A stretch of 63,606 bases of DNA, the filler included, from Globobulimina sp. (lineage: Eukaryota): NCBI GenBank assembly GCA_003354225.1. It is 54 parts of 54 records of this genome, joined end to end, with 100 filler letters (N's around TTAATTAATTAA, not from the genome) between each part and the next. Parts side by side here need not be neighbours in the genome. Positions count along the whole stretch, not along the records: positions 5,906 to 6,986 come from PIVH01024061.1; positions 7,087 to 8,167 come from PIVH01024062.1; 52 more parts are not named here. One strand, given 5' to 3'. The notes under the pieces are model-generated. The model saw only the letters and a list, made by a program, of their open reading frames with translations. It was not told the origin of the DNA and made no database searches. Positions within the stretch are counted from its first letter, which is position 1. Each line of letters starts with the position of its first letter. Shown piece after piece: positions 4,725 to 8,167 of this stretch. A program made the translations under genes and the position numbers.

Positions 4725-5805
4725 CAACAACATCAAGCTTTTAAAATCCGGGGTAAAAAAATGTTCCATCTGACTGCATTTATATTAGCTTTAAACTTCA
4801 TTTTGCGACCAATATTAGTCGCATTCGCTGTGTTGGAATTGATCACAATGAGTTGGCTCTGGAGGTTTGTCCCCATTTATTTCCTTAATAAGGTACATGT
4901 TTAATACATGTTTGTCTCATTTAAAACAATAATAAGGTTAATCATAGATATCGCTCAAATGTCATTATATTCTGTTATCGAATTCAGGTACTTTCGGATT
5001 GCAACATCTGAAGTCTGAACATCACAAACCGCAAATTATAAATATACAGATGTTGGATGACATATTTTAATTTAAATTCGAGCACAGCGATGGTCGACAG
5101 ACAATGGAAAAAATATTTGAATGAAAGTGAAGAAACAAGCGATTTTTTCATTAAATATAAGAAGTATTTTGGAAACAGTTTATTTGTTGGGATATTAAGT
5201 AGTTTTGACGGCGTTTTATGTGTTATTATATGTGGATTAGTTGAAGAATATTATGCATTCTATCCAGATCGGATCATATGCCATTTCTTCGCAGCAAATG
5301 TGTTGTTATTTATGTTATTTATTCATAGAATGTATACCTTGTTATTTGGCATAAAACATACATATTCGCACGATATGCTATCAATCAATAAAGAATTAAA
5401 TACAATCACATTAATAATGGCGGTTACCGCAATTTGTGACTGTGCTTTAGGACTTTGGTATCATTCCATGTCCTCTTTATTTTATGTAATTTATCAAACA
5501 ATATTAATATCATTATTAGCAATCATCATATTCAAATTACCACAGTATACAATCACTAAACTACTTCAGATCGAAAAGAAAGTAAAACGAACGAATTTAG
5601 CAAAATTAAAACACGTTTTTACGGATAGTGATTTATATCACAGTTTAATTAGATTTATGATTCAAGAGTGGAGCGCGGAAAACCTATTATTTATATCCCA
5701 ATGGATGCAGTTACAACAAATTATTGTCGATTCCCAGATTAATGTCAAAGTAAATCAAACTTATTCGAGTGTGGAAGGACGACAAAGCAATTTATTAGCA
5801 ATCCC
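4725..5805 (+). CDS. Multi-pass membrane protein with C-terminal RGS domain (intron-containing, partial)
   Basis: Several TM helices then FMIQEWSAENLLF (RGS F..E.S.ENL.F); main exon 5057-5805. Confidence 0.75.
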
Positions 5806-5926
5806 NNNNNNNNNNNNNNNNNNNNNNNNNNNNNNNNNNNNNNNNNNNNTTAATTAATTAANNNNNNNNNNNNNNNNNNNNNNNNNNNNNNNNNNNNNNN
5901 NNNNNTCAAAATTTAGAAATCCATTA

Positions 5927-6541
5927 GGGGTCTCCGATATGTACTGAATTTTCATTCAGTTTGACAGAGTTTTTCATTTTTTTTAACAATCCTGTCGAAC
6001 AGGTCTTCGGTTGATATGCCCAGTTTATTCTGTCGAATCTATATCGGAGATCGAGAGACCTCGTCGGGTTCTCCGAGCCTATCTATTGAATCTGTGAAAT
6101 GATATCCATTGAGGACTGGAAACGTGCCACCATCTCCCACGGCTTGCTAATCGCGCACAGCCACAATGAGCGCGTGTTCAAAATCGTGCAAATGAGCAAC
6201 AATCCCTTCACTCAAAAAGAATTCCAACAATGGAAGCAAACCATGCGTGATGACGGCGTTGTACTGCCTACGAAAGACGAGCTGTCCACTGCTTATTTGA
6301 ACGCTATTAAACGGCACAAAAACTTCAAATACGACGCAAATTCCATCGCATTGATGCGGGAGAAGAAGAACAAGAATTTCAATGCGCGGCAGCTGGCCAA
6401 TCCGCATAAGGAAAAGCTGCGGATTACGACTATTATTTCAGGCCTGCAATACGATGATACCCCGCAGGTGGCACAGGAACGGATGCGGTATGAACGGTGT
6501 TTGACAGAGTTTTTTAAAATTCAGTACATATCGGAGACCCC
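5927..6541. mobile_element. Non-autonomous TIR element (615 bp) with TA target-site duplication carrying a host gene fragment
   Basis: Perfect 26-bp TIRs GGGGTCTCCGATATGTACTGAATTTT at 5927-5952 and 6516-6541; TA at 5925-5926 and 6542-6543. Confidence 0.88.
6099..6500 (+). pseudogene. RTF1: Captured RTF1 (Paf1 complex) Plus3-region fragment inside the TIR element
   Basis: GLLIAHSHNERVFKIVQMSNNPFTQKEFQQWKQTM...LPT...NFKY matches the Plus3 C-terminus and downstream region; ORF runs on into the right TIR. Confidence 0.75.
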
Positions 6542-7306
6542 TATTCATGCAGCACCGTTTGGCTAAGATTATCACAAATTCGTTTGATAAATTGTTGTAT
6601 AAAACTAAGATTCCTGTGGAAGAAAGCAGATATTTAACGGGGACCTACAACCCTTTGGATGTATTGAATGAAAATGAAGTATTCATTGTGTCAAATGTAC
6701 AAATTACAGGCCAGGCATTAATATCACGACATCTCTCGGCCATCCAGGTGATGTCAGAATATTTACTGCTGTGAATAACTCAGAGCTGCATAACTTCATT
6801 GGATATTACAGCCAAACGCGAGCGGTGGCGTGTTTTTTTCTGTTAAGGCGAGAGAGCCGCGGCTGATTTTTATACCAAATGGTGGTTACGATGGTGATCT
6901 GTATTGGGTGTGTTATGATAATGAGTTAATAAAATTATTTGACGGGAAACAGGCCATTGAAGCTGCACCTATTGATTTTCCAGATGNNNNNNNNNNNNNN
7001 NNNNNNNNNNNNNNNNNNNNNNNNNNNNNNTTAATTAATTAANNNNNNNNNNNNNNNNNNNNNNNNNNNNNNNNNNNNNNNNNNNNTTTTTCCTCTTCTA
7101 ACGCTTCATGATATTGTTGCGTCTCAGGATCTACACATCCCCAGGCTGTGTTACCCATTGTTAACTGCTACAAGTTTTAAGGTTTTTAGTCTAGTGATTC
7201 ACACTGATTCTTGCATTTTCATTCAAAAAAAAAACTCGCACTTTCTTTAGCTTTTTTTTCTCCTCACAGACTTTTTTTTCCTCCGTCCGTTTTCTTATTT
7301 TGTATT

Positions 7307-8167
7307 ATGGCCTCATTTTATAACCAAAGAGCCTGCAATAAAGAGACGATAAGGCTGCATTCAGATGTCATCGAGAATGGAAAGAATACGGAAGAAGACG
7401 AAAAAGAATTAATCTCAATCTTGGGCGGCATCGATAACATTTTAGCGCTTTTCTTATTAAACGGCGGCTTAACTGTCGAACAATTGACGCAAATCCAGAC
7501 CGTATTACAAACCAAAAGCTCCGTATTACGAACGCCATCCATCGAAGAAATGAGCCACATCTTCGACGAAATCGATACGTGTTCGCATGGCCAATCCCAA
7601 TCGCCCATCAACCTGATCTCCTGCACGCAAACTGGCAGCAACACGCAAATCATGACCGACAAAGCCGTGGCAATCAATCCATTGCAGTTCAACTACCCGG
7701 CAAAAGTCACGCATTGCACCATAGTCAACAACGGGCATACGGTTCAGGTCAACATTAACGCATTGAATAAATGCACGCTCTCCATTCATAACAAGACCTA
7801 CGAATTAAAGCAGTTCCATTTCCACACTCCTTCTGAGCATACCATCGATGCCAAGCAGTACGATATGGAGATGCATTTGGTGCATTTGAGCGAGAAGAAC
7901 GAGATTGCGGTGTTGGGCTTTTTATTCACCACACAGCAGAAATACGTGAAACCCAAATTGCAATTAACGCAAAGTAGGGCCCATTTGAAGTTAGCGGCGG
8001 GCGGCGGCGGTGGCGCTGATAGCATGTTGATGCGCAGCGAGAGTTCGTTGCAAACCATGCACGAATCGGGCGATGATATCGATGAAAGCGACGAGGATAT
8101 GAAGACTGACGACGAATGGGACGAAATGGACACTGAGAGCAAAGAGAAAATCCGGCGCAAAAAAGCG
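7307..8167 (+). CDS. Alpha-carbonic anhydrase, partial
   Basis: QSPINL, NNGHTVQV, QFHFHTPSEHTID, EMHLVH (Zn-binding His residues present). Confidence 0.95.

What the first reader, a model, noticed from the sequence alone, without database searches (positions are those of the whole stretch)
5925..6543. Gene-capturing TIR element (Pack-type) carrying an internally deleted RTF1 fragment
Seen: perfect 26-bp TIRs, TA duplication, no transposase, and a GC-richer interior ORF. By recognition it joins a Plus3 start-like segment (ISIEDWKRATIS) directly to the Plus3 end (HGLLIAHSHNERVFK), so the domain core looks deleted. A 16-bp direct repeat GTTTGACAGAGTTTTT lies just inside both TIRs (~5959, ~6499) and brackets the cargo, perhaps a scar of capture. 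Known: Pack-type capture is documented mainly for plant MULE/CACTA elements; TA duplication suggests Tc1/mariner-type mobilisation. I know of no such description in this kind of protist.
Basis: partly seen in the sequence, partly recalled or inferred. Interest (0 to 1): 0.8.

Follow-up and report, generated by a model that had tools for sequence, protein, structure and literature searches.

The report
Gene-capturing Harbinger-type transposon in a protist
This 617-base piece is one copy of a jumping-DNA family that has lost its own genes and instead carries broken pieces of host genes (here the transcription factor RTF1), a gene-shuffling habit known from plants and animals and seen here in what looks like a foraminiferan.

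Summary
(1) The target duplication is 3-bp ATT with 27-bp TIRs starting AGGGG, not TA: 59 of 59 intact ends follow ANT-A, and 3 of 3 complete copies repeat the same triplet. (2) The partner is a two-gene PHIS (Harbinger-type, DDE_Tnp_4) transposon, not Tc1/mariner; its transposase starts about 90 bp inside the same left end. (3) The 16-bp repeat is a family-wide subterminal motif, not a capture scar. The cargo is an RTF1 Plus3 piece, 89% identical to a host copy, with only a 24-bp deletion, a frameshift and a stop. Four copies at different sites carry RTF1; sister copies carry four other gene pieces, one as an RTF1-helicase mosaic. No listed read contig bridges this copy's junctions, no complete autonomous copy was found, and Pangu membership is untested by phylogeny. 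The scan noted Pack-type elements in this genome before, on other DNA. Verdict: new member of a known kind (Pack-type).

The parts
5923..5925 (+). left target-site duplication ATT
   Evidence: same triplet on both sides in 3 of 3 complete copies
5926..5952 (+). left TIR, 27 bp, starts AGGGG
   Evidence: 38 exact genome matches of its 22-nt core
5959..5974 (+). 16-bp subterminal motif of the family (contains a 9-bp motif, reverse strand)
   Evidence: present in left ends with unrelated interiors
5992..6000 (+). second copy of the 9-bp subterminal motif, inverted to the first
   Evidence: candidate binding site is inference
6016..6018 (+). ATG at the place of the transposase start codon, in frame with the RTF1 piece; TGCC shared with the host gene at the junction
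6017..6498 (+). captured RTF1 fragment (C-terminal two thirds of Plus3 and following helices); 1-bp loss at 6073/6074, TGA at 6087-6089, 24-bp loss at 6126/6127
   Evidence: 464/521 identity to G000:C5728; Pfam PF03126; human RTF1 E 1e-18 for the host copy
6496..6515 (+). remnant of the right subterminal region with the second 16-bp motif (6499-6514); joined to RTF1 at a 14/17 look-alike, about 606 bp of a longer copy missing
6516..6542 (-). right TIR, 27 bp
6543..6545 (+). right target-site duplication ATT
   Evidence: homology to the uninterrupted RdRP paralog starts here
6543..6986 (+). flank: broken eukaryotic RNA-dependent RNA polymerase (PF05183) copy, 91% identical to G000:C24570, four 1-bp gaps

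Best explanation
A non-autonomous, Pack-type derivative of a two-gene PHIS (Harbinger-type) cut-and-paste transposon that duplicates ANT. Step 1 (shown by layout): the parent has a spliced DDE transposase starting about 90 bp inside the left TIR and a second, Cys-rich gene starting about 95 bp inside the right TIR, tail to tail. Step 2 (inferred): during repair of a broken or excised element the DNA synthesis switched template at a few shared bases, so host DNA replaced the interior; here the switch was at TGCC in the transposase start codon, onto an RTF1 gene. Step 3 (shown): the loaded element was moved in trans and multiplied; four RTF1-bearing copies lie at different sites and one also holds a helicase piece. 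Step 4 (shown as structure, mechanism inferred): this copy lost about 606 bp by a deletion between RTF1 and a look-alike stretch of the right end, plus small deletions and a stop. The cargo is now a decaying pseudogene fragment.
For: Family ends with many interiors. Exact or near-exact left end followed by transposase sequence in L050, L051, L052, L054, L057, L106, L130, L131, L134; exons 2 and 3 hit PF13359 at E about 1e-9. Right ends L042 and L045 begin the second gene, whose tail faces the transposase tail in G000:C5300. 59 of 59 intact ends follow ANT-A (58 AWT, 1 ACT); 3 of 3 complete copies have matching triplets. RTF1 in L001, L003, L004, L005 with incompatible flanks or deletions. Other cargos with long-frame donors lacking a TIR in the fetched DNA: Ski2-type PWI helicase (6 copies), a repeat protein of no family (9 copies with hits of 57 bp or more and over 80% identity), DUF4246-like (2 copies); a GH35 piece in 2 copies, donor not searched. 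Changes private to single RTF1 copies: 6 synonymous, 14 not, as neutral decay gives.
Against: No complete autonomous copy in this fragmented assembly. The empty-site test is one-sided: the RdRP paralog matches the right flank, the triplet and only 4 bases of the left flank; a wider left-flank alignment is not significant (96 of 1000 shuffles). Other repeated flanks were mostly uninformative. No listed contig of the 4 runs laid bridges either TIR junction or the RTF1-to-right-end joint of this copy (73 pieces were not shown). A 14/17 match between a 150-bp end and a 555-bp cargo arises in 17 of 200 shuffles, and TGCC is only 4 bases. The exact donor is not in hand: shared cargo changes against C5728 are 16 synonymous to 1 not.
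Confidence: 0.85

Rival explanations
1. Tc1/mariner-type Pack element with a TA duplication and a preference for AWTAWT.
For: Every end is preceded by TA, and with only three complete copies the matching W could arise by chance once in eight.
Against: The transposase behind these ends is DDE_Tnp_4; the RdRP paralog reads CC-ATT-CA with no TA at the site, and run contigs X2 and X3 join the flank exactly at 6543.
Confidence: 0.03
2. The family and its RTF1 cargo are real, but this short form is a chimera of amplification or assembly that joined RTF1 to the right end at the look-alike stretch.
For: The joint is seen in one contig only; no listed run contig bridges it; the assembly is fragmented (48,370 contigs).
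Against: Matching ATT on both sides; the same left flank and end recur on a second contig, C26076; the 24-bp loss is spanned without differences by an 81-base contig of run X1, which may be the source sample; sister copies show similar deletions.
Confidence: 0.07
3. The in-frame join of the transposase start codon to RTF1 made a translated, selected fusion protein before the present copies decayed.
For: The join is in frame in L001, L003 and L005; changes shared by the copies are 16 synonymous to 1 not, where 21% synonymous is neutral.
Against: The 3' RTF1 part shows only 1 and 1 shared changes against contig C28388, so the donor was probably another RTF1 allele or paralog than C5728; in frame by chance is one in three; all four copies are broken or partial.
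Confidence: 0.05

Closest known systems
Pack-TYPE transposons of plants, in particular Pack-PIF of maize (PMC8903248, passages seen)
   Same: Non-autonomous TIR elements with TSD, conserved ends and host gene pieces inside; PIF/Harbinger superfamily can do it; mosaic cargo.
   Different: ANT instead of the TNA target of classic Harbinger (PMC12477816, passage); protist host; transposase lineage with few close relatives (14 of 410 hits at E 1e-30 or better for relative P0002).
Multicopy Pack-TIRs of animals (PMC8277862, passages seen)
   Same: Short shared bases at breakpoints (190 of 281 there), capture followed by transposition, GC-richer cargo.
   Different: There mostly hAT and Tc1/mariner, mostly single-copy and rare; 'Harbinger' does not occur in that main text (its supplementary list was not seen). 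Here cargo is common among the copies examined.
Pangu / Harbinger2 group of PHIS (PMC4482050, passages and the Pangu section; PMC12730594, passages)
   Same: ANT duplication, TIR of 11-40 bp starting AG, two genes, transposase with a DDE domain only, second gene without a known domain.
   Different: The 15 host genomes listed include no rhizarian; gene capture is not mentioned in the section read; our transposase hits Plant_tran only weakly (E 0.002-0.05) and was not placed on a tree with Pangu references.

Membership tests
Pack-type non-autonomous TIR element | TIRs and a target-site duplication | tested here: met
   27-bp perfect TIRs, ATT on both sides
Pack-type non-autonomous TIR element | interior derived from a host gene with a parental copy in the genome, no transposase | tested here: met
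   89% to G000:C5728 over 521 columns; Pfam finds Plus-3 only above cut-off
Pack-type non-autonomous TIR element | ends shared with a transposase-bearing family; mobilised with its cargo | tested here: met
   four RTF1 copies at different sites
PHIS superfamily (PIF/Harbinger, ISL2EU, Spy and kin) | DDE_Tnp_4 (IS5-like) transposase | tested here: met
   PF13359 on exons 2 and 3 of L102, L105, L106, L108; 50 of 50 long relatives scanned hit PF13359
PHIS superfamily (PIF/Harbinger, ISL2EU, Spy and kin) | second gene in the autonomous element | tested here: met
   pieced from L042, L045, L125 and C5300, not seen in one complete copy
Pangu / Harbinger2 | ANT target duplication | tested here: met
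   59 of 59 intact ends, 3 of 3 complete copies; one-sided empty site
Pangu / Harbinger2 | TIR 11-40 bp starting AG or GG | tested here: met
   27 bp, AGGGG
Pangu / Harbinger2 | second gene without a known domain | tested here: inconclusive
   no Pfam family over cut-off on separate exons, no usable Atlas hit; a Cys/His pattern like a PHD finger is my recalled impression, untested
Pangu / Harbinger2 | transposase falls in the Pangu clade | not testable with these tools
   no labelled Pangu proteins were available; relatives found are unnamed or foraminiferan
Tc1/mariner | TA duplication | tested here: not met
Tc1/mariner | IS630-Tc1-mariner transposase linked to the ends | tested here: not met
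   the transposase behind the ends hits PF13359 only; Tc1 profiles were not searched in the genome
classic PIF/Harbinger | TNA target and Myb/SANT second protein | tested here: not met
   target is ANT; no Myb/SANT hit in second-gene pieces

The most novel reading that the evidence does not exclude
This ANT-type PHIS family captures host genes preferentially at its transposase start, so that host coding pieces come under the transposase promoter and start codon; the RTF1 capture made an in-frame, for a time selected, N-terminally cut RTF1 that could have interfered with host transcription-coupled silencing (the link of the PAF1 complex to small-RNA silencing is recalled, not from a call). If so, such elements would be a routine source of new fusion genes in foraminifera.
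Probability: 0.07. Interest if true: 0.75.

Novelty: new member of a known kind. Interest (0 to 1): 0.42.

Why it matters
It ties Pack-type gene capture to a defined transposase family in a poorly studied protist group and shows it at family scale: five different gene pieces, one mosaic, in a few dozen copies. My searches listed no paper on such capture in foraminifera or Rhizaria, nor for the ANT-targeting PHIS group; subscription papers and Repbase are not covered. It offers one route to the many gene fragments and pseudogenes of such genomes and warns that they can be annotated as paralogs. The mechanism itself is known.

Tried and rejected
TA/Tc1-mariner reading: rejected. 16-bp repeat as capture scar or as the duplication of a retrocopy inserted in a tiny element: rejected, since it is in both ends of copies with other interiors and has a counterpart in transposase-bearing ends, and there is no poly-A on the cargo's sense strand. 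Plus3 core deletion: rejected. Genome search with PF04827: 1 weak match of 5 candidates, on a contig with no similarity to the ends. Empty sites from repeated flanks: of 51 flanks, 1 informative (this copy), 1 suggestive (L021), the rest ambiguous or without partner. Left flank as RdRP: not significant. Second gene: no family in Pfam or Atlas. Placing the transposase in a PHIS subgroup: searches gave unnamed relatives only. Runs: no RNA holder listed; 4 of 5 listed runs were laid, all as contigs. A donor closer than C5728 for the 5' cargo: none among 3 of 3 candidates. Earlier-findings look-ups by sequence and by words gave nothing.

Full report
Context. The window is a chain of about 1.08-kb contigs joined by 53 artificial spacers. 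The finding lies on 5906-6986 (G000:C24061). The host is an AT-rich eukaryote; that it is a foraminiferan is inferred from the label of the closest named transposase relatives (Nonionella stella) and from earlier notes of the scan.

Observation. The inverted repeat (28 nt with the outer T/A), the 16-bp direct repeat and the Plus-3 frame are there. The 22-nt TIR core has 38 exact matches in the genome against 0 for the reversed control; a DNA search gave 79 matches with 40 of 82 candidates scored, so counts are lower bounds.

Target site. Of 45 ends in 43 loci, 44 are preceded by AATA or ATTA; the exception is a broken end. Over all loci fetched, 59 distinct ends with an intact start (up to 7 mismatches in 26, first bases GG, GA or AG; this filter drops broken ends) are all preceded by ANT-A: 30 AAT, 28 ATT, 1 ACT. 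The three complete copies read ATT/ATT, ATT/ATT and AAT/AAT. An uninterrupted paralog of the flanking RdRP reads CC-ATT-CA at the site, without TA, and contigs of runs X2 and X3 join the flank exactly at 6543. So the element is 5926-6542 (617 bp), with 27-bp TIRs starting AGGGG and an ATT duplication. Limit: the left flank matches the paralog for only 4 bases beyond the triplet, and a wider alignment is not significant, so the empty site is one-sided.

Family. Of 38 DDE_Tnp_4 matches in the genome, 30 loci were fetched; five (L102, L103, L106, L110, L111) carry related TIRs. In L106 a TIR with 1 mismatch in 27 is followed after about 90 bp by a spliced transposase; L130, L131 and L134 are alike, and copies with this subfamily's own left end (L050, L051, L052, L054, L057) keep the first transposase codons. 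Exons 2 and 3 hit PF13359. Right ends L042 and L045 start a second spliced, Cys-rich gene reading inward; its tail faces the transposase tail on C5300. No single complete autonomous copy was found. ANT target, AG-starting TIR and two genes match the description of Pangu (PMC4482050, Pangu section read; equal to Harbinger2 of Repbase per PMC12730594, passage; ANT-targeting tail-to-tail Harbingers also in a brown alga, PMC12477816, passage). The clade itself could not be tested: a relative of the transposase found 410 proteins at E 0.001, 14 at 1e-30, without useful names, and 50 of 50 long ones scanned are DDE_Tnp_4. I file it as PHIS, Pangu-like, not as Pangu.

The 16-bp repeat. It stands at the same place in left and right ends of copies with unrelated interiors. 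It holds a 9-bp motif that occurs twice, inverted, at each end of the complete copy L053, and in altered form in transposase-bearing ends. It is older than the capture. A role as binding site is inference.

Cargo. 6017-6498 matches an RTF1 gene on C5728 (464 of 521 columns), whose product aligns with human RTF1 (E 1e-18). The piece begins inside Plus3; the loss at KRA/TIS is 24 bp. There is also a 1-bp loss and a TGA. The left junction is at TGCC, shared by the transposase start and the host gene, and puts the transposase ATG in the RTF1 frame. L003, L004 and L005 carry RTF1 too and run on into its 3' part, which matches contig C28388 and the RTF1 contigs of runs X2-X4. In the window the RTF1 piece ends where the host sequence resembles the right end (14 of 17 bases, the best window in the 536-bp host stretch, next best 10), and about 606 bp of an L004-like copy are missing. 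Such a match exists by chance in 17 of 200 shuffles, so the mechanism is likely, not proven. The right-hand 16-mer thus marks a later deletion.

Other cargos. A PWI/Ski2-type helicase piece in L004, L006, L009, L014, L045, L049 (donor C7103); a repeat protein of no family in L011, L012, L016, L017, L020, L023, L025, L029, L055 (donor C12097, a 591-aa frame); DUF4246-like pieces in L007 and L053 (donor C24876; hits under Pfam's cut-off); GH35 pieces in L052 and L054 (donor not searched). L004 is a mosaic of RTF1, helicase and second-gene remnant. The RTF1 and repeat-protein cargos both start about 90 bp from the left end. Most copies are cut by contig ends; only L001, L053 and L055 show both TIRs.

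Selection. Against C5728, changes shared by two or more RTF1 copies are 16 synonymous and 1 not; private changes 6 and 14 (neutral share 0.21). The 3' part has only 1 and 1 shared changes against C28388. The simplest reading is a donor allele or paralog other than C5728, then neutral decay; a selected fusion is the bolder rival.

Reads. 4 of 5 listed runs were laid, all contigs, two samples at most. In X1, depth is 680-1036 on the left end and about 670 on the right, against about 7 on the flank (no copy number). Ends with other flanks occur in all four runs, also in the second study. An 81-base X1 contig spans the 24-bp loss without differences, but X1 may be the source sample. No listed piece bridges the TIR junctions or the right joint; 73 pieces were not shown. 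The left junction recurs on a second assembly contig, C26076.

Known and new. Pack-PIF, -hAT, -Mariner and -CACTA are described in maize and rice (PMC8903248, passages), Pack-TIRs with microhomology in animals (PMC8277862, passages), and fungal transduplication appears in a search listing (PMC3538342, listing only). Five searches listed nothing on such capture in foraminifera or Rhizaria or for ANT-type PHIS; supplements of PMC4482050 and PMC8277862 were not opened and may bear on this. The scan itself noted other Pack-type elements and a similar second gene in this genome (unchecked notes). Verdict: real, a new member of a known kind; interest 0.42.

Noticed in passing
window 6543-6986; L083, L084, L085: The right flank is a frameshifted copy of a eukaryotic RdRP; the genome holds at least an open 91% paralog and a 72% paralog, so this RNA-silencing gene has several copies.
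   Followed up: partly
L048:133-203, L052:652-722, L054:1774-1842: A tRNA-like piece with an incomplete anticodon sits just behind the transposase remnant in a subgroup of the family.
   Followed up: partly
L053:1726-1948: A different, abundant 220-bp palindromic MITE is nested in this complete copy.
   Followed up: no
L056 (G000:C5728) 1-221: The RTF1 copy on this contig ends in a 3' tail unlike the cargo copies, C28388 and runs X2-X4: a truncated duplicate or an assembly join.
   Followed up: partly
run X1, record 1, window 6017-6109: An 802-base contig matches the cargo start with 2 differences and no gap but does not go on into the left end: perhaps another RTF1 copy nearer the donor.
   Followed up: no
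L103:1-153: A right end of a sister family is inserted in the last transposase exon of a related element.
   Followed up: no
L127: A transposase copy that lacks the first intron seen in its sisters.
   Followed up: no
L047 (G000:C30212): A second, unrelated Plus3-domain gene in the genome.
   Followed up: no
L020:162-605: An RCC1-repeat frame follows a left end; cargo or flank could not be told.
   Followed up: no
window 7307-8164 and 5042-5805: Neighbouring, unlinked contigs: an alpha carbonic anhydrase (PF00194) and a membrane protein of no family found.
   Followed up: no
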